Shown one piece after another: positions 3-47,920 of a stretch of DNA of 64,000 nucleotides. The notes below the pieces were generated by a model. It was not told the DNA's origin and did no database searches. It worked only from the letters and a program-made list of their open reading frames with translations. Numbering within the stretch: the stretch's first letter is position 1; the number at the start of each line of letters is the position of its first letter. Where the stretch lies: the IMG/VR virus record IMGVR_UViG_3300028364_000013; one strand, given 5' to 3'. Made by a program: the position numbers and the translations under genes. The DNA is from a virus. Lineage: Duplodnaviria > Caudoviricetes.

Positions 3-2126
3 CCAAGTCTTCACGAAGGTGTAACTTATGAATTTGAAGGTGGATGGATTGAGCATGCTCGTTTTGGAAAACAGATGAACTCTAAAGCTGTATATGAAGT
101 TCCACCAAACACTAAAGAAGGCCTTAAGGCATATCTTGCGTCAAGTTTCTTTCCAGGAATTGGTCCAGTTATCGCAAATCGAATAATCAAGCATTTTAAA
201 AATGATGATGTCATAAGAGTGTTTAACGAAGACATCGAACTGCTTCTTGATGTTCCTGGAGTTTCTAAAAAGAAGTTAGAAGCAATCAAGGAGTCATGGG
301 AGGCAAACAACGAAATAAATGAAATAATGATGTTCCTTCAGCAATTTGGTATTACCACTGTATATGCTGCAAAGATTTATAAGCATTATGGAAAAGGTTG
401 TGTTGCTCAAATCAAAGAGAGACCTTATGAGATTGCAAGAGATATTAAAGGAATAGGATTCAAGTATGCAGATAAAATTGCTCTTGAAGTTGGTGTTGAG
501 CCTGATAGCGAAGAGAGAATAAAAGCCTGCATTATGCACATCCTTGAATCTGGTAGTCTTGATGGTCATTGCTATTTATTAAGAGAGCAAATTACTATTA
601 AGTCAACCGAATTACTTGGAGTTGACATTAGACCCCAAGTTGAGAACATCTTAAAGTATATGATTCAAGAAAAAGATATTTTAACAATATATCTTGATGA
701 TGAAGAAAACGAAACAAGGTACTATTCTAAAAAGCTTTATTATAATGAAAAAAAATGTGCCAACAGAATTGGAGAACTTTTATTAAATCACAAAAACATT
801 GAAATATCTGAAACAATAATTGAAACTGGCAAATTAAGTAATGAACAAAAAGAATCAGTTTTTGGAGTTATATCTAAAGGGGTTTCAATATTAACTGGAG
901 GCCCTGGTTGTGGAAAAACATATACAACAAAAACTATTGTTGAAGTATTGTTGAAATTAGGTAAAAACTTAGCGGTTTGTGCTCCTACAGGAAAAGCTGC
1001 ATTACGTAGCACATCAGTTATTGGATTTGAAGCTTCAACTATTCATAGACTTCTTGGTTGGGACCCAGAGAGTTTTGGATTTATGCATAATGAAAATAAT
1101 CCATTACCATTTGATTTTATAATAACAGAAGAAGCTTCGATGATTGATATAAATTTAATGTCATCATTTTTAAAAGCAATACCTGACGAATGTCAGATAT
1201 TATTTGTTGGAGACCACAATCAATTACCCCCTGTAAATGCTGGAGCACCATTTAGAGATATGATAGAAAGCGAAATTGTTCCAACATTTAAACTTACTGA
1301 AATTTTTAGACAAGCTAAAAACTCTGAAATCATAACTTCAGCACATGATATAAATAATGGAATAATGCCTGTAATCAAAAATCCTTTAATAAATCCAGAG
1401 ATTTGGAAAGATGGAACAGATTGTATGTTTATTGACTCTGGAGTTGGTGAATATGGAAGGCCGAATAGTGAATATCCAGAGCGGTCTTCTCTTAGATATG
1501 GTATGGATGTGGTGGATATGATTAAAAACATTTACACTAAAACTATAAAAAAGTACTATAACACAGATGATATTCAAATATTAATCCCAATGAAAGTATC
1601 TGATTTAGGAACTATTAAAATAAACTCAATTATTCAAGAAACAATAAATCCACTAAAAAGAGGAGATGAAGAAATAAAAATAGGTGATAAAAAATTTAGA
1701 AAAAACGATAAAGTAATCCATATACAGAATAATTATGACCTTGAGGTTTTTAATGGAGAAATAGGAAAGATAATATTAATTGATTCCATTTCTGGTTTTT
1801 GTGAAGTAGAATTTGATGGGGGTAAAATAATTAAATATAAAAAATCAAATATGATTGAACTTGAACTTTCGTTTGCCGTTTCAATACATAAATACCAAGG
1901 CAGTGAATGTTCTTGCATAATATTACCAATAATGCCAACATACAACAGAATGCTTGAGAGAACTTTAATCTATACTGGAATCACTCGTGCAAAAAAATTG
2001 TGTATTTTTATTGGCAAAAGAGAATCGTTGCAAAAAGCTGTTAATACAGTTAATTCATCTAAAAGACAAACTTCTCTTAAAGAACTTTTAATTGAGTCTG
2101 ATATGGTAAATTCACTTATCCCTTAA
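3..2126 (+). CDS. recD2: RecD2/TraA-like SF1 helicase (5' end outside window)
   Basis: HhH N-terminus (FPGIGPVIA), Walker A GGPGCGKT, TIHRLL, VGDHNQLPP, SIHKYQGSE, YTGITRAK. The frame is open from base 3 (PSLHEGVTYEFEGGWIEHARFGKQ), so the ATG at 75 is not the true start. Confidence 0.92.
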   Translation, partial: PSLHEGVTYEFEGGWIEHARFGKQMNSKAVYEVPPNTKEGLKAYLASSFFPGIGPVIANRIIKHFKNDDVIRVFNEDIELLLDVPGVSKKKLEAIKESWEANNEINEIMMFLQQFGITTVYAAKIYKHYGKGCVAQIKERPYEIARDIKGIGFKYADKIALEVGVEPDSEERIKACIMHILESGSLDGHCYLLREQITIKSTELLGVDIRPQVENILKYMIQEKDILTIYLDDEENETRYYSKKLYYNEKKCANRIGELLLNHKNIEISETIIETGKLSNEQKESVFGVISKGVSILTGGPGCGKTYTTKTIVEVLLKLGKNLAVCAPTGKAALRSTSVIGFEASTIHRLLGWDPESFGFMHNENNPLPFDFIITEEASMIDINLMSSFLKAIPDECQILFVGDHNQLPPVNAGAPFRDMIESEIVPTFKLTEIFRQAKNSEIITSAHDINNGIMPVIKNPLINPEIWKDGTDCMFIDSGVGEYGRPNSEYPERSSLRYGMDVVDMIKNIYTKTIKKYYNTDDIQILIPMKVSDLGTIKINSIIQETINPLKRGDEEIKIGDKKFRKNDKVIHIQNNYDLEVFNGEIGKIILIDSISGFCEVEFDGGKIIKYKKSNMIELELSFAVSIHKYQGSECSCIILPIMPTYNRMLERTLIYTGITRAKKLCIFIGKRESLQKAVNTVNSSKRQTSLKELLIESDMVNSLIP

Positions 2127-3092
2127 TGTTCTATATTTATAAAACTCTTGTGATTCTAATTGTTTAAAATTTAATAAATTTAAAACTATTTCAGGAGAAT
2201 TGTTATACAAATCCACAAAATAAATCTCTTTATCAATTTTCCATAAAATTATTAATCCAATATTATTTTCTTTACAATATTTTTCTTTTATTTTATCTCT
2301 TTTCTGTGTCTCTTTTAATTTTTCGATTCCACCGAAATATTCAACAGATTCAAAATGTTGATTTCCATGATATTCTATACACACATTTTGTTTTGGCAAA
2401 TAAAAATCAAATTTTAAATGCAAAATATATTTACAATCATTAAATTTTTTCTCACCTTCCAACTTTACCATGTTTTCTTTTAAAATTTTATAAATCATTT
2501 TTTCTCCATTTGAAAACTTGCACTTAGGACACCCATCGCCTCTTTTATGTGCGTTAGGGGTTTGCTTAAAATCACCATGATTTGAACATATGATAGATAC
2601 TTTTTTCATACAATTATCATAATTAACTTTTGAGTAATCATATTTATCTCCATGAACTAATTTAGAATCAGATATAAACTCTTTCAATGTCAATCTTGAT
2701 TTATTTGCATTTAATTTAATTCCACACTTTATACAACCATATTTTAAATGATTTTTAGGAGTTTGTTTAAACTCTCCATGTTCTGGACAAATAATTTTTA
2801 CTGCTTTTAAAGAATTGTTGTATTGAACTAGAGAGTAATCGTATTTATTTGTATGTATATTCCTCACCTTTTTAATAAATTCTTCAGTCGTTATATTTTT
2901 GTTAACACATTTTGGACACCCCTGTCCTCTAAAATGTTTTTCTGCAGATTGTTCAAAAATACCATGTTCTGAACAAATAATTTCAACCTTCAATTTACTC
3001 CCTAAATATTCAACAAGTGAATAATCATATTTGTATTCATGAATTTTATTTGACCTTTCTGTAAACTCTTCTGTTGTTAGTTTTACTGACAT
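2112..3092 (-). CDS. Free-standing homing endonuclease: Cys/His repeats (CxxHGxFxQ...GC.KC) plus C-terminal PD-(D/E)XK/Vsr-like nuclease
   Basis: Three YDYS.V.Y...IICxxHGxF repeats, then KFDFYLPKQNVCIEYHGNQH; overlaps the recD2 3' end convergently. Confidence 0.8.
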   Translation of the reverse strand: MSVKLTTEEFTERSNKIHEYKYDYSLVEYLGSKLKVEIICSEHGIFEQSAEKHFRGQGCPKCVNKNITTEEFIKKVRNIHTNKYDYSLVQYNNSLKAVKIICPEHGEFKQTPKNHLKYGCIKCGIKLNANKSRLTLKEFISDSKLVHGDKYDYSKVNYDNCMKKVSIICSNHGDFKQTPNAHKRGDGCPKCKFSNGEKMIYKILKENMVKLEGEKKFNDCKYILHLKFDFYLPKQNVCIEYHGNQHFESVEYFGGIEKLKETQKRDKIKEKYCKENNIGLIILWKIDKEIYFVDLYNNSPEIVLNLLNFKQLESQEFYKYRTLRDK

Positions 3093-3093
3093 C

Positions 3094-3246
3094 TTAAACT
3101 CCTTTTTCTAAAGACTCTCTAATAACCTCTGATACTTTAACTATTCTCTTTTCTTCATTACTACGCTTAATAGCCTTTTCTACGTATTTCTGGTATAACT
3201 CATAACTCAGTCTAACGCTCAAGTGTTTATCAATTGTTTTTTTCAT
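3094..3246 (-). CDS. Ribbon-helix-helix (CopG/Arc-like) protein, 50 aa, absent from ORF track
   Basis: Manual translation MKKTIDKHLSVRLSYELYQKYVEKAIKRSNEEKRIVKVSEVIRESLEKGV; stop 1 nt before the HEG ATG; TATTTATA motif upstream (3274-3281). Confidence 0.65.
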   Translation of the reverse strand: MKKTIDKHLSVRLSYELYQKYVEKAIKRSNEEKRIVKVSEVIRESLEKGV

Positions 3247-3303
3247 TGTAATATTGTATATTTGTGTTACAATTATAAATAGTAATAAAAATAAAAATCA
3301 TAT

Positions 3304-3492
3304 ATGAATAGAAAACCACTTGGATATTGGACAAAAGAATTATATCATGAAACAGCTCTAAAGTGTGATTCAAGAAGTGAGTTTCAAAAAAAATATAGTG
3401 GAGCTTATCAAGCTGCTTATAGCAATGGTTGGCTCGATGAAATTTGTCCCCATATGAGACGATACAAACCTGCGTTATCATTCCAATCATGA
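3304..3492 (+). pseudogene. Remnant of HEG-associated DNA-binding repeat
   Basis: KPLGYWTKE...SRSEFQKKYSGAYQAAYSNGWLDEICPHM, a repeat typical of phage endonucleases; no nuclease domain; runs into the recD2 remnant. Confidence 0.5.
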
Positions 3493-3704
3493 CTCAATAC
3501 TCAAGAATGCTTTATAGAAATTTATTGTACACAGGACTTACAAGAGCAAAGAAGTTGGCTGTATTTGTTGGACAACGTAAGGCGTTTAATATGGCGATTG
3601 ATAATGTTGACCCAAGAGCAAGACAAACCTCCTTAAAAGAGCTGTTAATTGAGACTGGGATTATAAAAAAAGGAGTTAATCTTTTACGACAACTCCTTCT
3701 TTAA
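3471..3704 (+). pseudogene. recD2: Orphan displaced C-terminus of recD2
   Basis: CVIIPIMTQYSRMLYRNLLYTGLTRAKKLAVFVGQRKAF...RQTSLKELLIE aligns with the intact gene end CIILPIMPTYNRMLERTLIYTGITRAKKLCIFIGKRESL...RQTSLKELLIE. Confidence 0.85.
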
Positions 3705-4056
3705 TATCTTTAATGTACTGTTCCTTTGTGCCTTCAAGTTCATTATATTCCTCTTCTGATACAAAATCGCAATCTACAAATTCAAGCTCAATCTTTTTTA
3801 ATATCGCCTGCCTGGCTTTCATCTTAGCGAAAAAAGCTGCCCTGGCTGGTATAAACATCTCATACTCTTTATGACTCTCTTGTGGGTTTAAAGGGTCGTT
3901 AACCTTTATAGTAAACTTTACAAAGTACATCCTGTTCTTTAAAGCTCTCTCTTTACGAACTTTCTTTTTCTTATATGTACCAAGCTTCCACTTCCTAAAG
4001 AGGTCGAAGAATTTTAAAATAAACTTAGGTAAATTTGAAGGTTCGTTTTTTGTCAT
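3676..4056 (-). CDS. Hypothetical protein
   Basis: 126-aa ORF in the minus-strand gene run. Confidence 0.6.
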   Translation of the reverse strand: MTKNEPSNLPKFILKFFDLFRKWKLGTYKKKKVRKERALKNRMYFVKFTIKVNDPLNPQESHKEYEMFIPARAAFFAKMKARQAILKKIELEFVDCDFVSEEEYNELEGTKEQYIKDIKEGVVVKD

Positions 4057-4059
4057 TTG

Positions 4060-4458
4060 TTATTTTGCTAAAAAACCTTCAAAATTAGATTTTATATTAT
4101 TTAATTGAGCACTGTCTTTTATGTAATCAAGAACCTCACCGTCTTCAATGTTGTATGGTATTGCAAACAAGTCAAAAACTCCATCTTCAAATGAAAATAT
4201 TGCAACATAATCATTATTAATGTCTCCACCTTTAGGGAAATCAAGAGATAAATACACTCTTTTAGCGCCATTGTTTTTGTATTCTGCAAACCTCCTATAA
4301 CAAGAAGCAACATCACCACCTAATGCTAATGCGTTTATTTCAAACTTATTATCTTTTGTTTCTACAAAAAGTTGAAATGGGTAATGACCATAACAATTGC
4401 TATTTTCAATGAAATCTATTTTCACCATTGATTCTACAAATTCTTCTACTGTATTCAT
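4060..4458 (-). CDS. Hypothetical protein
   Basis: 132-aa ORF, tight packing. Confidence 0.65.
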   Translation of the reverse strand: MNTVEEFVESMVKIDFIENSNCYGHYPFQLFVETKDNKFEINALALGGDVASCYRRFAEYKNNGAKRVYLSLDFPKGGDINNDYVAIFSFEDGVFDLFAIPYNIEDGEVLDYIKDSAQLNNIKSNFEGFLAK

Positions 4459-4475
4459 TTTTATAAATTTAATTT

Positions 4476-4766
4476 TTAAACAAAATTTGCTCCTCCTTTA
4501 TAGAAAATATAATGAGATTTACAAGGTAATTGATAATTCCCAACACTTGGTTGCATACTTATATTATCATTTGAATCTAATTGGTAACTCCACTCTCCTT
4601 TTCCCAATGGCATAACCGTCTTACTACCGCATCCACACATACATTTATGAATAGATACGCTGTAAATGTCAGAAATGTAAATTACATTATCTTCAAATTC
4701 ATTAAAATCAGGCATGGTTTCCACTTTTTTATATGTTACCTCTATCCTGTTTTTAGTTTTTTTCAT
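4476..4766 (-). CDS. DUF6527-like Cys/His protein
   Basis: HKCMCGCGSKTVMPL, SMQPSVGNYQLPCKSHY motifs. Confidence 0.6.
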   Translation of the reverse strand: MKKTKNRIEVTYKKVETMPDFNEFEDNVIYISDIYSVSIHKCMCGCGSKTVMPLGKGEWSYQLDSNDNISMQPSVGNYQLPCKSHYIFYKGGANFV

Positions 4767-5035
4767 TTATTCTTTATAAATTCAATTAAAGCTTTTTTGC
4801 TTAGTATGATTGTATCTTCAAGTGATGCTGCTAAAAGATTGTCGGGAGTATTTTCTTGCAAATATCCAAGGCCAGTTACAAGCCACATGGCTCCATCATC
4901 AACTTTTACTTCCGCAGCGTTTCCACCTTGTGTTTTTTTTAATGTTCCAATAAGCTTGTGTACGTTTTCGTCTAAGACCAAATTGTCATATTGCAAGCCT
5001 TCAAGTTCTTTGTCTTTCATAATTTCTCTTTGCAA
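4763..5035 (-). CDS. Hypothetical protein
   Basis: 90-aa ORF downstream of an ECF-type promoter (5078-5105). Confidence 0.6.
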   Translation of the reverse strand: MQREIMKDKELEGLQYDNLVLDENVHKLIGTLKKTQGGNAAEVKVDDGAMWLVTGLGYLQENTPDNLLAASLEDTIILSKKALIEFIKNK

Positions 5036-5103
5036 AAAAATACAAAGAAAAATTATGAAAGTAAAGAACTTATCCCATTATACGAAAAAAAAATAAAAAT
5101 GTT

Positions 5104-5673
5104 TTATTCTACTCCTAAATCATTTCTCTCTCTATCGAAAAAGTAGTCTCTCGCAACCTGTGAGATGTATTTATTAATCTCCTTTGGCTCAAGTCCAGCG
5201 TCAGCAATAACATCAAGCTCTTCCTTCATAACGTCATTAATTACCATTCTAAGGTAATCACCAAGCTTCGCTCTGTCAACATGCCCTCCGTTGATTAAAT
5301 CAAATGTTTCTGAAAGCATTTGTTCTAAACGCCAATTTGGAGTAACCTTATTTACAGTCTCATGAATTTTATTAAGCTTCTCATTATCAACAACCTTAAG
5401 TGTTTTTACTTTTGACGCACCAGCATGCTTTTCACCTTTGGATTTAAAAATATGTCTTGACCCATCTTCCATTAGACAGGAAAAGACAATCCCTTCACCA
5501 ATCCCTATTTCTTCAAATTCTTTTGCAACAGGACATTCATTTTCAACTTCAAGAGTCATATTAATTATATCATTCTGCACAATATCTGGTCTATTGAAGT
5601 CAATATCCACTTCGTAGGTCTTGAAGTCTTCAATATTATAAATTTTATTTTCTGGTGAACTTAAATTTTTCAT
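5104..5673 (-). CDS. RNA ligase (Rnl2-like), C-terminal part of split gene
   Basis: Nucleotidyltransferase motif IV GEGIVF and motif V FKSKGEKH; continues the 6629-7246 fragment. Confidence 0.75.
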   Translation of the reverse strand: MKNLSSPENKIYNIEDFKTYEVDIDFNRPDIVQNDIINMTLEVENECPVAKEFEEIGIGEGIVFSCLMEDGSRHIFKSKGEKHAGASKVKTLKVVDNEKLNKIHETVNKVTPNWRLEQMLSETFDLINGGHVDRAKLGDYLRMVINDVMKEELDVIADAGLEPKEINKYISQVARDYFFDRERNDLGVE

Positions 5674-5680
5674 GTTTATT

Positions 5681-6577
5681 TTATTTTGTTTTTTTACAAT
5701 ACCAGCCAGTATATTTTAACAAGCCTTTTTTTTCTAACCTTTTTTTGTTTGACCCTAAATTATTATAAATAGGCTCTCCTTTTTCTCTATATGACTTCTT
5801 AAACGCTCCATATGGTAAGTTATTTTTTTTGCAAAATTCTGTAAAATTTTCATTTAAAATGTGATACTTTTTCACATGATTATTATCATATATAAAATAC
5901 TCACTTTTATTAAAATTAACCCCCTTTGTATATCCAACTAACTCTCCAGAAACATATCTTTTATCATCTACTCTAACTTTTAAAACATTACCATTTTTAT
6001 CTCTCACTGTAGCAATTCCAACATTAACTGACATTAGATTGTCGTCATTTGCATATTCTTCTTTACTAACTCTTTTTTTCTCTCCAGTTACATTGTCAAT
6101 AACACTAACTAATCCATTTTTTTCAAAAGTCCTTGTTAGTTGTCCATTTTTAATTCTTTCATCATCATTATTGACTTGAAATGTATTTCCATCTTTATCA
6201 AAAACAGCTATTTTATTTTTTGCAACTCCAAATAAAGAATCATCTTTATCAAAATCTTCTTTTTTTATTTGCCTTCCATTTAAAGAAACATAACCTTTTC
6301 TAAAACCTCCATGACCACCTAACTTTAAATTATAAGTATCATCTCTTTTTATAAAATCTTCATTAACAATTTTTGATTCCATCAATTTCATTTCATCTTC
6401 ACTTTCACAAAAATGTAAAATCCTTTTTTCAAAATTATCAATACCATATTTATTAATAACACGTTTTATATAAAGTCCAGACCCCATATAACCATCATCA
6501 ATATTTATTGTCTTGTGATACCCAACATAAACCATGTTGTTAATCTTATTTTTTATTTCATAAATTGTGTAAAACAT
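5681..6577 (-). CDS. GIY-YIG homing endonuclease
   Basis: [31 protein letters not shown]; own TATTTATA motif (6589-6596). Confidence 0.85.
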
Positions 6578-6628
6578 ATTCTTTTTATTATAAATATCAA
6601 TAAAAAACAGAATACTTACACCAGGCCA

Positions 6629-7246
6629 TTAATTAATTTTTGTCACTACCCAATATGAAGATACTTCCTCATTAAATGGATATACTTTAGCATGGCTAAA
6701 TATAAAAGAGCTTTTCTCTAAATTAGAAATTCCAACATTTTTTTGAATTCCCTTTCCAACCCATTCCATGCATAGCATTATTGTATTTTCTTTTAAATCA
6801 ATATCATTATGTATAGCAAGAGATTTAATCAAATCTATAAAAACTTCTTTTTTTGATTCTGCGAACCAAGCAAAACCTGCATTGTCATTTGTTTCTAATT
6901 TTTTAATTCCCAATATATTTTTTGAAAATTTAGTTTTTTCTCCCTCGTCTTCAACTGTAATATTTGTTTTATCATCAAAAGAAATTTTATATAAAACCTC
7001 TGGAACTGGTGTAATTATTTCATTTTTAGATTGATACCATACCCCTGAAATATCATTATAACAAACTGCTGCAAATGTACCATGTAATTTTATGGTTCCT
7101 TTAAATTTAAGATTAGGTTTTTTAATAGAAGGGTCATATATTGCCTTTCCATTATCATCAAGCCCAGTAAATCCTGCTCTATCGCAAACGCTTTTTACAA
7201 CATTTCTATATTGACCTATTGATGCTGCTGATATAAATTTTTTCAT
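6629..7246 (-). CDS. RNA ligase (Rnl2-like), N-terminal part of split gene
   Basis: Motif I-like KLHGT, QSK, DNAGFA, motif III EWVGKGIQK. Confidence 0.75.
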   Translation of the reverse strand: MKKFISAASIGQYRNVVKSVCDRAGFTGLDDNGKAIYDPSIKKPNLKFKGTIKLHGTFAAVCYNDISGVWYQSKNEIITPVPEVLYKISFDDKTNITVEDEGEKTKFSKNILGIKKLETNDNAGFAWFAESKKEVFIDLIKSLAIHNDIDLKENTIMLCMEWVGKGIQKNVGISNLEKSSFIFSHAKVYPFNEEVSSYWVVTKIN

Positions 7247-7806
7247 AATTTTATTCTTTTATTTGTTGAAAGCCAAAGCTTTGGCTCTGTGTTTCTAATT
7301 AATTCATTTAATTCTTCAACCTTGTTTGCAATATCTGGATGGAAGTCTGAAAGAGACTGGTCTTCAGTGCAATACTCTTCATTAAGCTCGTCAATGTTTA
7401 TTTCAGATATGTGAACTTGCTTTTCGCAATGCATAAGCTCTAATTTTTTGATGTCCACTTCATTTTCTTCACAATATTCAACAACATCTTCCATGTCTGA
7501 GAAGAATTTATCATCATGTCTCAAGCACATCATTGACTCTCCATCCCATTCAACTTCTTCTAATTTTAGAAAATTTTCATGAGAAGACTTGGATACGCAG
7601 AAGTCACATTTAGTGCGAGTCTTTTTTATAACAGCTCCACAATCACATTTTGTATGAGTGCTATTTGCATACCTTGCTCTTCTTTCTCCTGCTTCACCTT
7701 TTCCATGATAAAGCCCGTCTGGACCAGTCCAACCTTCAAGGTTTGTTCTGTACTCTACCAAATTAGGGTCGTCATACATTCTTATTTCATCTTTTACTTC
7801 ATCCAT
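7243..7806 (-). CDS. Conserved-looking phage hypothetical protein with Cys cluster
   Basis: 187-aa ORF, THTKCDCG...CDFC. Confidence 0.6.
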   Translation of the reverse strand: MDEVKDEIRMYDDPNLVEYRTNLEGWTGPDGLYHGKGEAGERRARYANSTHTKCDCGAVIKKTRTKCDFCVSKSSHENFLKLEEVEWDGESMMCLRHDDKFFSDMEDVVEYCEENEVDIKKLELMHCEKQVHISEINIDELNEEYCTEDQSLSDFHPDIANKVEELNELIRNTEPKLWLSTNKRIKL

Positions 7807-9223: not shown

Positions 9224-9295
9224 CCACTTTGGGCAACCACAAGAAAGATAGATGGAGTTATTTATGAAGGGAACATTAATAAAGGAGAAGATTAA
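9200..9295 (+). pseudogene. C-terminal remnant of an HNH-type endonuclease
   Basis: Manual translation VNSLSNLQPLWATTRKIDGVIYEGNINKGED*, resembling the NLQPLW...N..K end of phage HNH proteins. Confidence 0.5.
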
Positions 9296-9669
9296 TCTAA
9301 AATTATAATAGAATCTATTTGTTTTCTGGTCATATTGACTCTTGAAACTTGAATTAAAACCTCATCTCCAAGCCTATAGCTATCTCCATTATTAAAATCG
9401 TTTATACAATAGTTTTCTTCATCAACAAATAGATTATTGGATTTTAGCCAATCTTCTGAAACCATTGTATCACATCCATTTTCTATTATTTCTATAAAAA
9501 CACCAAACGAATTTACACTGGAAATAATTCCTTTAAATTTCTCTCCAATTTTACTCTTCAGAAACTCGCACTGCTTGTACTTAATGGATTCTCTCTGTGC
9601 TTTAGCAGCTTTTTGTTCTTGTTCACTTAGATGTTCGCACATTTGTGATAATTGTGATTTATTATACAT
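9292..9669 (-). CDS. rnr: RNase R C-terminal part (end of RNB domain + S1 domain)
   Basis: CEHLSEQEQKAAKAQRESIKYKQCEFLKSKIGEKFKGIISSVNSFGVFIE; ATG overlaps the integrase stop (TAATG). Confidence 0.85.
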   Translation of the reverse strand: MYNKSQLSQMCEHLSEQEQKAAKAQRESIKYKQCEFLKSKIGEKFKGIISSVNSFGVFIEIIENGCDTMVSEDWLKSNNLFVDEENYCINDFNNGDSYRLGDEVLIQVSRVNMTRKQIDSIIILD

Positions 9670-10472
9670 TATATAGGTAAATTTACTTTATTTAACATTT
9701 TATTTGAGACATGGGTATATATCTCAGTGGTTTTAGATGATGAGTGACCCGCTATCTTCTGAATAATTCTAAGGTCTGTGCCGCTTTCCAATAGATTTGT
9801 GAAAGAAGAATGGCGTAGTGTGTGAATTGAAGAGTTGTTGTCAATATACTTCTTATATATTTTCTGACAACTACCAACTGAATACTGGTCATAATTTTGA
9901 CCATTAAACAAATAAGTTTTTGGCCTATATTCTTTCCAATAATACCTCAACAACTGCAGCACATAGTTCGATAATGGTACAACCCTATCTTTTCTTCCCT
10001 TAGCATTTTTAATATAAATCAACATTCTGATGGAGTCAATATCTTCTATTTTTAAATTAACAACTTCTGATACACGAAGACCAACTGAATACGTTAAAGT
10101 CAATATTGCTTTATGTTTTAAATTTTCAATCTTTGATAACTTATCTTTAATCAATTCTCCATCTATAACTTTTGGTAACTTCTTTTCTTTCTTTGGCCTC
10201 TTAAAAGATACTTTATCATACTTTTTATTGAGCCCAAACTTATAAAGAAATCTAATTGCGTTAATAACTTGATTTTGTTTTGATATAGAAGTGAAATTAT
10301 AATTATTAAGATATAACTGAAAATCTTTTGAATTGAGGTGAATTATTCTTTTATCACCGCACCAAGTAATAAATTGCTTGATGTAATGGGTATAAATGTC
10401 CTTGGTTCTTTCAGAGTAGTTTAAATATATAAACTTTTGTTCACAAATCTTTACAATTTTTTGATTTAACAT
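9669..10472 (-). CDS. Tyrosine recombinase (XerD/IntI-like, SAM-like N-terminus)
   Basis: Intact catalytic set: GLRVSE (R), AKGRKDR (K), HTLRH (HxxR), AGH, TEIYTH (Y). Confidence 0.92.
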   Translation of the reverse strand: MLNQKIVKICEQKFIYLNYSERTKDIYTHYIKQFITWCGDKRIIHLNSKDFQLYLNNYNFTSISKQNQVINAIRFLYKFGLNKKYDKVSFKRPKKEKKLPKVIDGELIKDKLSKIENLKHKAILTLTYSVGLRVSEVVNLKIEDIDSIRMLIYIKNAKGRKDRVVPLSNYVLQLLRYYWKEYRPKTYLFNGQNYDQYSVGSCQKIYKKYIDNNSSIHTLRHSSFTNLLESGTDLRIIQKIAGHSSSKTTEIYTHVSNKMLNKVNLPI

Positions 10473-44535: not shown

Positions 44536-45114
44536 ATGAATCAGAATAACAACACACAACAAAGCGCTACACCAAACTTGGATAAATATGCCAGGAACTT
44601 AGTGAGAATGGCAAAAAATGGAAAACTTGACCCTATTATAGGTCGTGATGATGAGATTAGACGGATACTTCAAATACTTTCTCGAAGAACAAAGAACAAC
44701 CCTATTATTACAGGTGAATCTGGAGTAGGTAAGACAGCGGTTGTTGAAGGTATTGCTCATAGAATTGTCAGAGGCGACATTCCAGAGAACTTAAAGGACA
44801 TCATTATATATTAACTTGACCTTGGAGCTGTAATGGCTGGAGCAATGCACAAAGGAGAGTTTGAGCAAAGACTTAAAGGTGTAATCACAGAAGTTTCAAA
44901 TTCAAATGGAAGGTTCGTACTTTTCATTGATGAAATCCACACAATGGTTTCAGCTGGAGCTGGAGGCGGTGCTGTTGGAGCAGCTGACCTTGTTAAGCCA
45001 GCCCTTGCAAGAGGAGAGATGAGAACGATTGGAGCAACAACTCTTAATGAGTATCAGAAGTATATTGAGAACGATAAAGCTCTTGAGAGACGTTTTCCAA
45101 GAGTAATTTACTGA
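44536..45114 (+). pseudogene. clpB: ClpB/ClpC AAA1 fragment with internal TAA, truncated
   Basis: [54 protein letters not shown] then stop. Confidence 0.85.
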
Positions 45115-45832: not shown

Positions 45833-46762
45833 ATGAAAAAATTAACAAAAAAAGAATTTATATCCAGAAGCAATGAAATACACAACAAATTTTATGACTA
45901 CCCTCTTATTGAATATAAAAACCAAAATACAAAAGTGATAATTATTTGCCCAGAACATGGAGAATTTGAACAGCGTCCAGACCATCACTTAGCAGGAAGG
46001 GGTTGTAAATTTTGCGCACAAAGCAATAAAAAAAATGATGATACCAGAAAACAACATGCTTCTAATTTTATAAAAAGAGCCACCAAAAAGTGGAATGGTA
46101 AATATGACTATTCCAAAATTGATTATACAACAGCAAGAAATAAAATAATAATTATTTGTCCAGAACATGGAGAACTCCTTCAATCTCCAGACACACACCT
46201 TAAACATGAATGCTTAAAGTGTTCTATAAAAAATCACCCAAACCATCAGAAAAGAACTACTGAAGAATTTATTATCAAAGCCAAAAATATTCATGGAGAT
46301 AGATATGATTATTCCAAAGTAGACTATAAAGGAAATAGAGATAAAGTAGAAATAATTTGCAAAGAGCATGGTTCATGGTGGCAGACTCCTTATAACCATT
46401 TACAAAATAGAGGCTGTAGATGTTGCACCAATAGGTCTAAAGGTGAAATAAAAGTAGAATCACTCCTGAAAGAAAGTGGTATAAATTTTATTAGAGAGAA
46501 AACTTTTGATGATTGTAGAAATCCAAAATCTGGAGCCAAGTTAAAATTCGACTTCTACATTCCAGAAAAAAACTTATGCATTGAATATGATGGTCGCCAA
46601 CATTTTGTCCCAGTTGAAATATGGGGTGGAGAATTAGCTTTAAAAGAAACTAAAAAACGTGATAAAATAAAAAATGGATATTGTCGCAAAAACAATATCC
46701 ATCTCATAAGAATATTCTACAAAGATAATATATCAAAGAAATTATTTTCCCTGTTCTCTTAG
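45833..46762 (+). CDS. Free-standing HEG, paralog of 2112-3092
   Basis: CPEHGEF repeats; KFDFYIPEKNLCIEYDGRQH; TATTTATA at 45814-45821. Confidence 0.82.
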   Translation: MKKLTKKEFISRSNEIHNKFYDYPLIEYKNQNTKVIIICPEHGEFEQRPDHHLAGRGCKFCAQSNKKNDDTRKQHASNFIKRATKKWNGKYDYSKIDYTTARNKIIIICPEHGELLQSPDTHLKHECLKCSIKNHPNHQKRTTEEFIIKAKNIHGDRYDYSKVDYKGNRDKVEIICKEHGSWWQTPYNHLQNRGCRCCTNRSKGEIKVESLLKESGINFIREKTFDDCRNPKSGAKLKFDFYIPEKNLCIEYDGRQHFVPVEIWGGELALKETKKRDKIKNGYCRKNNIHLIRIFYKDNISKKLFSLFS

Positions 46763-47322: not shown

Positions 47323-47469
47323 ATGAAAAATAAAGAAAAAGACGTAGTTTGGCCAATTAGAATGAAGCAAACTTTAAAAGATAAATTTAAAGCTCATTGT
47401 GACAAAAAAGGATACTCAATGAATAAAAGAATGAAGGTGTTAATTGAAAATGATATAAAAGATGCCTAA
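47323..47469 (+). CDS. RHH/Arc-like protein, 48 aa (absent from ORF track)
   Basis: MKNKEKDVVWPIRMKQTLKDKFKAHCDKKGYSMNKRMKVLIENDIKDA; overlaps the HEG start. Confidence 0.7.
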   Translation: MKNKEKDVVWPIRMKQTLKDKFKAHCDKKGYSMNKRMKVLIENDIKDA

Positions 47470-47920
47470 AAAATTAACAACTAAATCTTTTATAAAAAAG
47501 GCTAATAAAATTCATGGAGATAAATATGACTACTCATTAGTTAATTATATTACAAACAAACTAAAGGTTATAATTATTTGTCCAGAGCATGGAGAATTCG
47601 AACAACCTCCACATGGTCACTTAAAAGGATATGGATGCTATGAGTGTGGTAAGAAAATTAGCCGAAAAGTAACAACTTATGAATTTATTGAGAGGTCTAA
47701 AGAGATTCATAACAATAAATTTGATTATTCTTTAACTGAGCTCAATGGTGTTATGAATAAAGTTAAAATAATTTGTCCAAAACATGGAGTTTTTAATCAA
47801 GCTGCTTATGGACACCTCTCTGGTAGAGGTTGTAATACTTGTAAAAGTTCAAACGGAGAAGAAACAAAAAAATATGGATTAAAAAGAAAGATAGATAAAT
47901 TTTATAAAATTATTGAATGA
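47462..47920 (+). pseudogene. Truncated HEG (repeats only, nuclease domain lost)
   Basis: Two CPxHG repeats; diverges after TCKSSNGE, where paralogs begin the nuclease domain. Confidence 0.7.

What the first reader, a model, noticed from the sequence alone, without database searches (positions are those of the whole stretch)
1890..3704. recD2 3' end replaced by an incoming HEG cassette, old tail left behind
Seen: a diverged second copy of the last ~70 codons of recD2 (3471-3704) lies beyond the RHH-HEG operon and begins right after the QGSE motif position; both copies keep RQTSLKELLIE. Established: fungal mitochondrial HEGs insert in-gene and carry a duplicate 3' end to repair the target. Inference: the same strategy in a phage, with the new tail probably resistant to cleavage. 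The distal part of recD2 also looks more AT-rich, suggesting a longer replaced tract.
Basis: partly seen in the sequence, partly recalled or inferred. Interest (0 to 1): 0.68.

Follow-up and report, generated by a model that had tools for sequence, protein, structure and literature searches.

The report
Nuclease cassette replaced phage helicase gene end
In a 364-kb lake-water phage, a selfish nuclease gene arrived together with a foreign copy of the last 60% of the RecD2 helicase gene, overwrote the native version and left the native last 65-70 codons stranded downstream. This design was known from yeast and fungal mitochondria, and related phages appear to have swapped the same gene module many times.

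Summary
recD2 (3-2126) is followed by a Vsr-type homing endonuclease (2112-3092, minus strand), an RHH-like gene (3094-3246, minus strand) and a 62-aa endonuclease-module remnant (3304-3492). After these comes a second recD2 tail (3471-3704), 55% identical to the in-gene tail (E 3e-28).

Relatives have two allele classes. The orphan tail is 87-94% identical to class B, as is the gene's first ~318 codons. It runs colinearly into the native downstream genes of a nuclease-free relative (L030).

The in-gene part from nt ~779 onward is class A. The replaced tract is therefore ~1.35 kb of gene plus a 1.34-kb cassette, not 70 codons.

Trees of the 5' and 3' parts conflict strongly (AU p 1e-27 to 1e-75). 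Ten other A/B sister pairs break at codons 264-320, so the module has moved repeatedly.

Best reading: endonuclease-linked gene conversion that swaps in a probably resistant 3' module, as in yeast WHO elements and fungal mitochondrial mORFs. Cleavage, resistance and the donor are untested. The tool that fetches relatives' contigs was closed.

This scan has noted the same design on other DNA, but I found no published phage case. New variant of a known kind; interest 0.62.

The parts
3..778 (+). Native (class B) 5' part of recD2. It covers residues 59 to ~317 of the 765-aa protein; the gene starts upstream of the window.
   Evidence: Pfam HHH_RecD2 and HHH_5. Residues 1 to ~320 of the protein are 89% identical to P0008, and the sister relationship has 100* support in the N-part tree. 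Window 147-778 is 80.4% identical in DNA to the nuclease-free relative L030. dN/dS against L030 is 0.046.
771..786 (.). Left recombination breakpoint, at the end of the conserved ...CANRIGELLL stretch.
   Evidence: DNA change-point against L030 at nt 779 (2-lnL interval 771-786): 80.4% identity to the left, 62.8% to the right, LLR 32.5. Protein change-point against P0008 at residue 320 (316-321), LLR 45. The first A/B diagnostic site is residue 314.
779..2126 (+). Imported (class A') 3' module of recD2: helicase motor domains, SH3 domain and the in-gene tail with its stop codon.
   Evidence: Pfam AAA_30, AAA_19, SH3_13 and UvrD_C_2. It sits in a 100* clade with all class-A alleles in the C-part tree. 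Grouping it with its N-part clade is rejected, AU p 1.6e-27. Identity to L030 is 58% aa and dN is 0.36. GC is 29.7% and GC3 17%.
1887..1916 (+). Junction motif HKYQGSECSC in the in-gene allele. It is the candidate cleavage-resistant version of the conserved HKSQGSEFDC motif.
   Evidence: Only the window and P0015 among 119 relatives carry it; 90 have HKSQGSEFDC. The in-gene DNA differs from the class-B consensus at about 10 of 24 nt around QGSE-FDC. Resistance is inferred, not tested.
1914..2126 (+). In-gene 'new' tail: the part of the imported module that is duplicated by the orphan.
   Evidence: 55% identical to the orphan. At most 77% identical to class-A tails and 56-61% to class B. It falls in a 97* clade with all ten class-A tails.
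2112..3092 (-). Free-standing homing-endonuclease gene (326 aa). It has three Zn-knuckle DNA-binding repeats (DUF723/DUF4379, CapR-like) followed by a C-terminal Vsr-like PD-(D/E)xK nuclease domain. Its last 15 nt overlap the end of recD2.
   Evidence: Pfam DUF4379 and DUF723. phrog_559, E 3.6e-69. Three 101-nt internal repeats. AlphaFold model with pLDDT 93.6. Residues 193-315 match Vsr 1cw0 (Z 9.7, rmsd 2.9 A, 105 residues) and the I-Bth0305I catalytic domain 3r3p (Z 7.3, 87 of 97 residues). D229, E240, D266 and K269 are at least 90% conserved in the family alignment. GenBank relatives are annotated as EDxHD or VSR homing endonucleases.
3094..3246 (-). 50-aa ribbon-helix-helix-like gene, 1 nt upstream of the endonuclease gene. 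It is the probable regulator of the two-gene operon.
   Evidence: ORF. The sequence pattern is a beta-strand (HLSVRLS) followed by two helices. The protein-atlas neighbours are CopG/RHH_1, RHH_3, RHH_6, TraY and ParG clusters, but at scores of 0.85-0.89, which is lead-level only. There is no Pfam, NCBIfam or PHROG hit. The regulatory role is inferred.
3245..3273 (.). Palindrome ATTGTAA-N15-TTACAAT that overlaps promoter-like hexamers on both strands. It is a candidate divergent promoter and RHH operator.
   Evidence: Sequence. Promoter-like matches at 3246-3273 (+) and 3272-3245 (-). The scan found no more such sites in the region than in shuffled controls, so this is weak evidence.
3304..3492 (+). 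62-aa ORF: a single copy of a repeat module found in GIY-YIG-type phage endonucleases. It is probably a remnant of an older endonuclease gene. Its last 7 codons are read out of frame from the orphan tail.
   Evidence: Residues 2-53 match positions 244-295 of the 302-position phrog_20046 profile, E 1.9e-13. tblastn hits fall inside annotated GIY-YIG nuclease genes of Rhizobium phages, and at up to 11 places per genome in large Vibrio phages. The ORF runs across the 3471 junction.
3471..3704 (+). Orphan native (class B) recD2 tail. Homology to recD2 covers 3471-3665; the last ~13 codons differ and overlap the end of the convergent gene 3676-4056.
   Evidence: 87-94% aa identity to class-B tails, the nearest being P0011, P0013, P0014 and P0008, which is the same clade as the N part. 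89% identity to P0008 by tblastn. Window 3475-4474 aligns colinearly with L030 1778-2782 at 78.7%. dN/dS against L030 is 0.068, with no stop or frameshift in 64 codons. The terminal branch in the tail tree is 0.016.
3676..5035 (-). Native downstream genes (126, 132, 96 and 90 aa) that anchor the orphan tail in the resident genome.
   Evidence: The 126-, 132- and 90-aa genes are syntenic with L030 (1997-3027), and the 126-, 96- and 90-aa genes have homologues in L025. Identity to L030 is 68% for the 126-aa gene and 83% for the 132-aa gene.

Best explanation
The recD2 gene of this phage is a chimera made by endonuclease-linked gene conversion.

Starting point. The ancestor carried an ordinary class-B recD2, like P0008 or L030, directly followed by the convergent 126-aa gene.

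The donor. A co-infecting relative carried a mobile unit with three parts:
- a diverged class-A' recD2 3' module (codons ~320-765);
- a convergent RHH plus Vsr-type homing-endonuclease operon;
- a remnant of an older endonuclease gene.

The event (inferred). The endonuclease cut the class-B allele. The best guess for the site is the conserved QGSE/FDC codons where the orphan begins. The break was repaired from the donor. To the left, A and B DNA are only ~62% identical, so conversion ran back about 1.1 kb to the first well-matched stretch (...CANRIGELLL, nt ~779). To the right, the recipient's own tail was kept, starting at codon 696.

The right-hand junction. I favour a WHO-like origin, in which the donor unit already ended in a class-B tail fragment that served as the right homology arm. 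The alternative is a one-off, one-sided repair with an illegitimate join.

The result. The phage now has a working hybrid helicase that presumably resists the nuclease, the nuclease cassette, and a stranded native tail.

What is shown: the chimera, both boundaries, the native origin of the orphan, the foreign origin of the 3' module, and repeated independent swaps of this module in related phages.

What is inferred: that this endonuclease made the break, where it cuts, that the new allele is resistant, and which of the two right-junction routes applied.
For: - Duplicate tails at E 3e-28.
- Two allele classes exist among 119 relatives. The orphan belongs to B and the in-gene tail to A.
- Sliding identity and change-points place the switch at residue ~320 / nt 779 (LLR 45 and 32.5).
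- In the N-part tree the window is sister to P0008 (100*). In the C-part tree it sits inside a 100* class-A clade.
- AU tests reject congruence of the two parts: p 2e-57, 3e-75 and 1.6e-27.
- The orphan plus downstream genes are colinear with the nuclease-free L030 at 78.7%, matching the 80.4% seen for the N part.
- The orphan still shows dN/dS 0.07 and a 0.016 terminal branch, so the event is recent.
- Ten other A/B sister pairs break at codons 264-320 with LLR 22-110. P0015 against P0048 is 98% identical to the left and 56% to the right. Class A needs at least 7 changes on the N-part tree.
- The endonuclease is intact, models with high confidence and has a Vsr/I-Bth0305I-like nuclease domain.
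- The unusual HKYQGSECSC motif lies exactly at the junction.
- No intron or intein is present.
- The hybrid recD2, the endonuclease and the orphan ORF are each on record from 4 contigs.
- Published mechanisms of this kind: WHO elements (PMC7282813), fungal mORFs (PMC3630166), and one-sided illegitimate homing in T4 (Parker et al. 1999, as cited in PMC2988022).
Against: - No cleavage data exist and no donor genome is in hand.
Class A was absent from IMG/VR and from the loci that the JGI and GTDB scans returned. Whether class A is generally linked to an endonuclease or an orphan tail is therefore unknown.
- No called orphan-tail ORF sits on a contig whose length matches a class-A contig.
- This endonuclease family is abundant here: a second copy lies at 45833-46762. 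A same-family gene on P0015's contig therefore means little.
- Core class-A alleles keep the ordinary HKSQGSEFDC motif, so the odd motif may simply be shared ancestry of the window and P0015.
- In a two-sided model the boundaries mark the limits of homology, not the cut site, so the cut could lie anywhere between codons ~320 and 696.
- A tail-only AU test does not reject the two tails being sisters (p 0.146 on 64 columns).
Confidence: 0.8

Rival explanations
1. The history is the same (foreign 3' module plus cassette, native tail stranded) but it arose de novo in this lineage by one-sided homing. The left end invaded the donor's recD2. Synthesis ran through the donor's gene end and cassette. 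The new strand was then joined illegitimately to the recipient's broken right end, so the start of the orphan marks the actual cut.
For: One-sided homing with microhomology junctions has been demonstrated in T4 (Parker, Belisle and Belfort 1999, cited in PMC2988022). No orphan tails could be tied to other class-A contigs. The orphan begins two codons after QGSE, a typical conserved-motif target.
Against: The junction cuts off the last ~7 residues of an old endonuclease-module ORF, which suggests an inherited junction rather than a fresh one. The same module has moved at least 7 times with left ends in the same zone, which is easier with two homology arms. Three other contigs carry 64-65-aa recD2 tail ORFs that start at the same Met (P0244, P0245, P0247). 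No microhomology can be assessed without the donor.
Confidence: 0.25
2. Ordinary modular recombination between co-infecting phages produced the hybrid. The endonuclease is a passenger or a later insertion and made no break.
For: The N and C modules of recD2 are shuffled across the whole clade, including a third allele class (P0023, P0040, P0042, P0046). The breakpoints sit at a domain linker, where hybrids are likely to be viable. The link between class A and an endonuclease is unproven outside this window.
Against: Homologous exchange cannot create a partial duplication. The right junction lies inside recD2, directly beside the cassette. The endonuclease gene overlaps the imported tail by 15 nt, so the two are one physical unit. 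Endonuclease genes at boundaries of exchange are a documented pattern in phages (PMC10448857).
Confidence: 0.1
3. The tail was duplicated in place within this genome and the two copies then diverged.
For: The tail-only AU test does not formally reject the two tails as sisters (p 0.146).
Against: The tails are 55% identical to each other, while the orphan is 94% identical to P0011 and the in-gene tail 77% to class A. The in-gene tail is continuous with 376 further class-A codons. The orphan's branch is very short, at 0.016.
Confidence: 0.02
4. The arrangement is a metagenome assembly chimera that joins a class-A strain to a class-B strain.
For: The window comes from an assembled 364-kb contig. 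Mixed strains are common in such samples.
Against: The hybrid protein, the endonuclease and the orphan ORF are each recorded on 4 contigs. The cassette-to-orphan join has no shared sequence that could mislead an assembler. Independent assemblies show the same kind of hybrid, for example P0015/P0048.
Confidence: 0.03

Closest known systems
WHO elements at the aldolase gene FBA1 of Torulaspora and Lachancea yeasts (Coughlan et al. 2020, PMC7282813; Osborne et al. 2026 preprint, 10.64898/2026.08.13.744650)
   Same: An endonuclease gene lies just downstream of an essential host gene. Each integration replaces the gene's 3' part with a diverged allele and pushes the old 3' end downstream as a fragment. 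The 5' and 3' parts of the gene give contradictory trees. The element's functional unit is the nuclease gene plus the resistant 3' region.
   Different: Here the nuclease is a Vsr/PD-(D/E)xK enzyme with Zn-knuckle repeats, not a LAGLIDADG intein-like protein. It is convergent with the host gene and preceded by an RHH gene. The host is a phage. The chimera boundary lies 1.1 kb upstream of the start of the fragment, not at the same point. Only one orphan is present, not a cluster. Cleavage is untested.
Mobile endonuclease ORFs (mORFs) that make gene hybrids in fungal mitochondria: Allomyces macrogynus atp6 (Paquin et al. 1994) and Glomus atp6, atp9, cox2 and nad3 (Beaudet et al. 2013, PMC3630166)
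   Same: A foreign C-terminus plus an endonuclease ORF is inserted in a gene. The native C-terminus is left downstream and is closer to relatives than the inserted one (91-98% against 64-81% there; 81-94% against 56% here).
   Different: mORFs are usually in phase with, or co-oriented to, the host gene and bring only the duplicated C-terminus. Here an extra 376 codons upstream of the duplicated part were also converted, and the nuclease family differs.
Intronless homing by free-standing T4-type endonucleases (SegF, SegG, MobE) with co-conversion of flanking genes (PMC2988022, PMC2790892), and one-sided illegitimate homing (Parker et al. 1999)
   Same: A free-standing phage endonuclease gene lies next to an essential DNA-metabolism gene. 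Flanking gene sequence is co-converted over hundreds of bases or more. The setting is mixed infection.
   Different: In the reviews read here, T4-type cases are described with the endonuclease either between intact genes or splitting a gene in two, and no stranded duplicate gene end is mentioned.
I-Bth0305I / EDxHD homing endonuclease family (Taylor et al. 2011, PMC3239194; 'fractured genes', PMC2677866)
   Same: A Vsr-like catalytic domain (Z 7.3 to 3r3p, Z 9.7 to Vsr). The setting is a phage or environmental sample. The targets are DNA-metabolism genes.
   Different: I-Bth0305I is encoded in a group I intron. This enzyme is free-standing, carries three DUF723/CapR-type Zn modules, and its motif reads IEYHGNQH. 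Sequence searches give no significant PDB hit.

Membership tests
3'-end-replacing homing elements (WHO/mORF type), by way of working | An endonuclease gene lies immediately beside the full-length host gene. | tested here: met
   The 326-aa Vsr-type endonuclease gene at 2112-3092 overlaps the recD2 stop by 15 nt.
3'-end-replacing homing elements (WHO/mORF type), by way of working | The full-length host gene is a chimera of a native 5' part and a foreign 3' part. | tested here: met
   Change-point at nt 779 / residue 320. The N-part and C-part trees conflict, AU p 1.6e-27 to 3e-75.
3'-end-replacing homing elements (WHO/mORF type), by way of working | A displaced native 3' fragment lies beyond the endonuclease gene and is closer to element-free relatives than the in-gene 3' end. 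| tested here: met
   The orphan at 3471-3704 is 81-94% identical to class-B tails, against 56% for the in-gene tail. It is colinear with L030.
3'-end-replacing homing elements (WHO/mORF type), by way of working | The endonuclease cuts element-free alleles and spares the allele it travels with. | not testable with these tools
   Only a hint exists: HKYQGSECSC replaces the near-universal HKSQGSEFDC at the junction.
3'-end-replacing homing elements (WHO/mORF type), by way of working | The same element recurs with an orphan fragment in other genomes. | tested here: inconclusive
   The class-A module recurs in at least 7 lineages, but no class-A contig could be read. P0244, P0245 and P0247 are candidate orphans elsewhere.
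WHO family proper (by descent) | A LAGLIDADG intein-like endonuclease with a zinc finger, related to HO. | tested here: not met
   The nuclease domain is Vsr-like PD-(D/E)xK, with no LAGLIDADG or Hint Pfam hit. It works like a WHO element but is not a member of that family.
EDxHD / Vsr-like homing endonucleases (I-Bth0305I) | A Vsr-like catalytic fold. | tested here: met
   Z 9.7 to Vsr (rmsd 2.9 A, 105 residues) and Z 7.3 to 3r3p (87 of 97 residues), using a model with pLDDT 93.6. There is a weak DUF559 hit, E 0.014.
EDxHD / Vsr-like homing endonucleases (I-Bth0305I) | Conserved catalytic residues of the EDxHD motif. | tested here: inconclusive
   D229, E240, D266 and K269 are at least 90% conserved in 35 homologues. 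I did not map them residue by residue onto the I-Bth0305I motif.
EDxHD / Vsr-like homing endonucleases (I-Bth0305I) | Encoded inside a group I intron or between split-intein halves. | tested here: not met
   No Rfam intron at E<=1 in 1500-7500. No intein domains. The gene is on the opposite strand and is free-standing.
Group I/II intron or intein interrupting recD2 | A ribozyme core or Hint domain, with the host ORF restored only by splicing. | tested here: not met
   The in-gene ORF is full-length with its own stop and aligns end to end with relatives. No Rfam hit. Relatives do carry a true intein, but in the P-loop, after the residue matching P0001 position 365.
RecD2-type SF1B helicase (host gene) | An N-terminal HHH domain, a P-loop motor, an SH3 domain and a UvrD_C_2 tail. 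| tested here: met
   Pfam HHH_RecD2 1.8e-34, AAA_30 1.3e-36, SH3_13 5.7e-18 and UvrD_C_2 9.8e-14.

The most novel reading that the evidence does not exclude
Freshwater jumbo phages of this clade harbour a WHO-like 'third category' homing element. It consists of a Vsr-type endonuclease operon plus a 1.35-kb recoded helicase-motor module, bounded on the right by a class-B tail fragment that serves as the homology arm. The element spreads as a natural home-and-rescue drive and has converted recD2 independently in at least seven lineages. That would make the A/B allele dimorphism of an essential replication or repair helicase the product of a selfish element rather than of adaptation.
Probability: 0.5. 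Interest if true: 0.75.

Novelty: new variant of a known kind. Interest (0 to 1): 0.62.

Why it matters
Homing elements that neither splice nor split their host gene, but instead overwrite its end with a resistant copy, have been treated as a rare yeast and fungal-mitochondrial curiosity. As recently as 2026 they were described as 'a third category ... considerably more rare'.

Here the same logic appears in a phage, with three notable features:
- a different nuclease family;
- a converted tract that takes in a whole helicase motor;
- population-level evidence that the module has been exchanged again and again.

This offers a concrete mechanism for sharp allele dimorphism and domain-level mosaicism in essential phage genes. 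It also provides a freshly stranded tail that brackets where to look for the target site. Finally, it defines a simple, testable pair of substrates (class-B allele against in-gene allele) for a poorly characterised, very abundant Zn-knuckle/Vsr endonuclease family, which had about 8,000 hits among the candidates scored.

Tried and rejected
Searches that found nothing useful:
- DNA search of INPHARED phages found no close relative; only endonuclease-family matches at 66-75%. tblastn of recD2 gave at most 37% identity, and no phage record holds two tails.
- IMG/VR scans with the window's recD2, the class-A alignment, P0267 and P0245 found only class-B loci (L001, L002) or nothing.
- The single JGI metagenome scan, with P0245, did not return P0245's own contig. 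It did return L030, the key nuclease-free relative.
- The GTDB genome scan returned only bacterial RecD2 at 43% identity or less.
- No whole genome is held for this window.
As a result the contigs of P0015, P0002-P0012, P0244, P0245 and P0247 could not be read.

Leads that did not hold up:
- L025, which looked like a split recD2 (P0050 plus P0243), is a simple frameshift.
- Contig-length matching linked P0015 to a same-family endonuclease, P0179. I discount this because the family is multi-copy in this phage.

Weak or negative tests:
- phmmer of the endonuclease against PDB found nothing, and Foldseek E-values were weak. The structural alignment then gave a clear match.
- The RHH-like gene has no Pfam, PHROG, NCBIfam or phage tblastn hit.
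- Rfam shows no intron.
- The repeat finder does not see the two tails at DNA level, because they are only ~60% identical.
- The tail-only AU test lacks power (p 0.146).
- My first dN/dS run was mis-registered by one codon. I redid it with protein-guided codon alignment.

Full report
**Anatomy**

The plus strand carries recD2 from the window edge to 2126. The full protein, P0001, has 765 aa, and the window starts at residue 59. It has all RecD2 domains.

Convergent with it, and overlapping its last 15 nt, is a 326-aa ORF (2112-3092). One nt upstream of that lies a 50-aa ORF (3094-3246). A 57-nt spacer follows, containing the palindrome ATTGTAA-N15-TTACAAT. Next comes a 62-aa plus-strand ORF (3304-3492). 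From 3471 to 3704 lies a second copy of the recD2 tail.

The two tails align without gaps at 55% identity over 65-66 residues, E 3e-28. The orphan's homology starts at the Cys codon two codons after QGSE.

**Which tail is native**

A search of 5.8 billion proteins gave 119 relatives at 51-73% identity. Their tails fall into two classes:
- class A: PTYNRMLER...SLEKAVNT.NS.KRQTSLKELL
- class B: TQYSRMLYRNL...AFNMAIDNVDPR.RQTSLKELL

The in-gene tail is class A, with at most 77% identity to any class-A tail. The orphan is class B, 87-94% identical to class-B tails (P0011 94%, P0008 90%) and only ~56% to class A.

One JGI contig, L030, is a nuclease-free, syntenic class-B relative. Window 3475-4474 aligns colinearly with L030 1778-2782 at 78.7%, running from the orphan straight into the 126- and 132-aa downstream genes. 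The orphan is thus the resident gene's own end. It has no stop or frameshift over 64 codons, dN/dS against L030 of 0.068 (0.046 for the native N part), and a terminal branch of 0.016. The stranding is therefore recent.

**How much was replaced**

Sliding identity shows that P0001 residues 1 to ~300 are 80-98% identical to class-B P0008. From there on the protein is closest to class A, and at the very end to P0015.

Sites that distinguish A from B begin only at residue 314. The protein change-point against P0008 is residue 320 (316-321; 89% to the left, 59% to the right; LLR 45). The DNA change-point against L030 is nt 779 (771-786; 80.4% against 62.8%; LLR 32.5).

The imported DNA therefore runs from ~779 to ~3470. 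It comprises 1.35 kb of recD2 (the whole motor, the SH3 domain and the tail) plus a 1.34-kb cassette. Only the last 65-70 codons are duplicated. The 376 codons before them were overwritten.

Composition agrees with this. GC is 34.7% before the breakpoint and 29.7% after, with GC3 falling from 26% to 17%. The cassette is 26.3% and the orphan 35.0%. Three nuclease-free relatives show no such drop. However, 29.7% is not extreme for this genome.

**Phylogenetic tests**

In a tree of residues 1-295 the window is sister to P0008 (100*). The ten class-A proteins are scattered among class B: 9 changes are needed, at least 7 of them forced by starred branches, which is no better than shuffled labels.

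In a tree of residues 311-765, all class-A proteins plus the window and P0045 form one clade (100*).

AU tests gave these results:
- class A held as one clade on the N part is rejected, p 2e-57, or 3e-75 with the window included;
- the window's C part held with its N-part clade is rejected, p 1.6e-27;
- the tail-only tree puts the in-gene tail in a 97* class-A clade and the orphan next to P0014 and P0008, but with 64 columns it cannot formally reject the two tails as sisters (p 0.146).

**Recurrence**

Ten further pairs of a class-A protein and its N-part sister of class B all show one strong change-point between residues 264 and 320 (LLR 22-110). P0015 against P0048 is 98% identical before residue 318 and 56% after. 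Of the five B-B control pairs, three show no appreciable break (LLR 1.5-4.5) and two show N-terminal breaks near residues 82-123 (LLR 12-20). None breaks in the 264-320 zone.

The helicase-core module has therefore crossed between lineages many times, with differing left ends in the same homologous zone. Polarity (B overwritten by A) is shown only for this window, by its orphan. A third allele class (P0023, P0040, P0042, P0046) is shuffled in the same way.

**The cassette**

The 326-aa protein has three roughly 65-aa Zn-knuckle repeats (Pfam DUF723 and DUF4379; 101-nt DNA repeats). These are the CapR-like DNA-binding modules described in phage endonucleases (PMC10448857).

Its model (pLDDT 93.6) has a C-terminal domain that matches Vsr (Z 9.7) and the catalytic domain of the homing endonuclease I-Bth0305I (Z 7.3). 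Conserved acidic and lysine residues are present. Annotated relatives are called EDxHD or VSR homing endonucleases.

The 50-aa protein looks like a ribbon-helix-helix protein from its sequence pattern and from lead-level atlas neighbours, but it has no profile hit.

The 62-aa ORF is a single copy of a module that ends GIY-YIG-type endonucleases. It lacks the last ~7 profile positions and instead reads out of frame into the orphan. It therefore looks like debris of an earlier endonuclease that was truncated when the junction formed.

No intron or intein is present.

**Mechanism**

The layout matches two published designs:
- fungal mitochondrial mORFs.

I infer that the endonuclease cuts class-B recD2 and that repair copies the donor's class-A' module and cassette. 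Because A and B DNA are only ~62% identical across the motor, conversion extends to the first well-matched stretch, near codon 318.

The right junction has two possible origins. It may be inherited with the element, in a two-sided WHO-like event; I favour this at about 55%. Or it may have been made here by one-sided illegitimate repair of the kind shown in T4; about 25%.

The cut site is not established. The best guess is the QGSE/FDC codons. There, the window and P0015 alone among 119 relatives read HKYQGSECSC, and the DNA differs at ~10 of 24 positions from the class-B consensus. In a two-sided event, however, the boundaries reflect homology limits, not the break.

**Limits**

The same-family endonuclease on P0015's contig is weak evidence, because the family is multi-copy in this phage.

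Three small ORFs elsewhere (P0244, P0245, P0247) begin at the same Met as the orphan ORF. They may be further orphans or second exons. This is unresolved.

**Novelty**

Full-text searches found WHO elements, mORFs, T4 co-conversion, split genes and endonucleases at exchange boundaries. They found no description of a phage endonuclease cassette that replaces a gene's 3' part and strands the old end.

Earlier notes of this scan report the same design on other DNA: phage tail, spanin and folE genes, a giant virus and Asgard archaea. It is probably widespread but, as far as I could search, undescribed. I rate it a new variant of a known kind.

Noticed in passing
window 5104-7246 (-): An RNA-ligase-like gene, 355 aa and intact in L001, L002 and L025, is here in two ORFs: an N half at 6629-7246 (205 aa) and a C half at 5104-5673 (189 aa). 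A GIY-YIG endonuclease gene (5681-6577) lies between them. The N half looks more diverged and carries an extra segment. Already noted by the scan (e1-5402835).
   Followed up: partly
window 9292-10472 (-): A C-terminal fragment of an RNase R-like gene (125 aa) lies directly after a 267-aa XerC/D- or integron-integrase-like recombinase (NF040815, E 1e-49). Earlier notes describe an integron-like cassette array here.
   Followed up: no
relatives P0086, P0094, P0106, P0107, P0115, P0116: These recD2 homologues are 1098-1099 aa. In P0086, the one aligned here, a ~344-aa LAGLIDADG intein sits in the P-loop (GGPGVGK|C...HN|T), after the residue matching P0001 position 365. The others share the length and intein Pfam domains. 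recD2 of this phage group is thus a hot spot for several kinds of selfish element.
   Followed up: partly
P0244, P0245, P0247 (contigs of 3752, 10620 and 1506 bp; not retrievable): These 64-65-aa called ORFs are class-B recD2 tails that begin at the same Met (IPIM) as the window's orphan ORF P0241. That implies a disruption within the ~24 codons around QGSE in three other assemblies. They could be further orphan tails or intron-split genes.
   Followed up: partly
L025 1182-3438: recD2 in this JGI contig is broken into a 648-aa ORF and an overlapping ORF that holds the 106-aa called protein P0243, by a simple frameshift with no insertion.
   Followed up: yes
window 45833-46762 (+) and 47462-47920 (+): There is a second Vsr-type Zn-knuckle endonuclease (309 aa, 47% identical to the recD2-linked one) and a 152-aa protein made only of two Zn-knuckle modules. 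Just upstream, at 44536-45114, are two short ORFs that look like pieces of a Clp/AAA+ ATPase.
   Followed up: no
window ~1098-1115 (Walker B) and class-A relatives: Class-A recD2 alleles read IIVEESSM (the window reads IITEEASM) where class B has IIDESSM. The Walker B Asp-Glu is therefore Glu-Glu throughout class A. The Walker A motif also differs (GCGKTYTTK against GTGKSTMTK).
   Followed up: no
window 4476-4766 (-): A 96-aa Cys-rich ORF is present here and in L025 but absent from the otherwise syntenic L030. It is a small indel polymorphism in the native downstream block.
   Followed up: no
window 3666-3704: The orphan's last ~13 codons (IKKGVNLLRQLLL) do not match any recD2 end. They include a 21-nt stretch absent from L030 and overlap the longer C-terminus of the convergent 126-aa gene. 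It is unclear whether this predates the stranding.
   Followed up: partly
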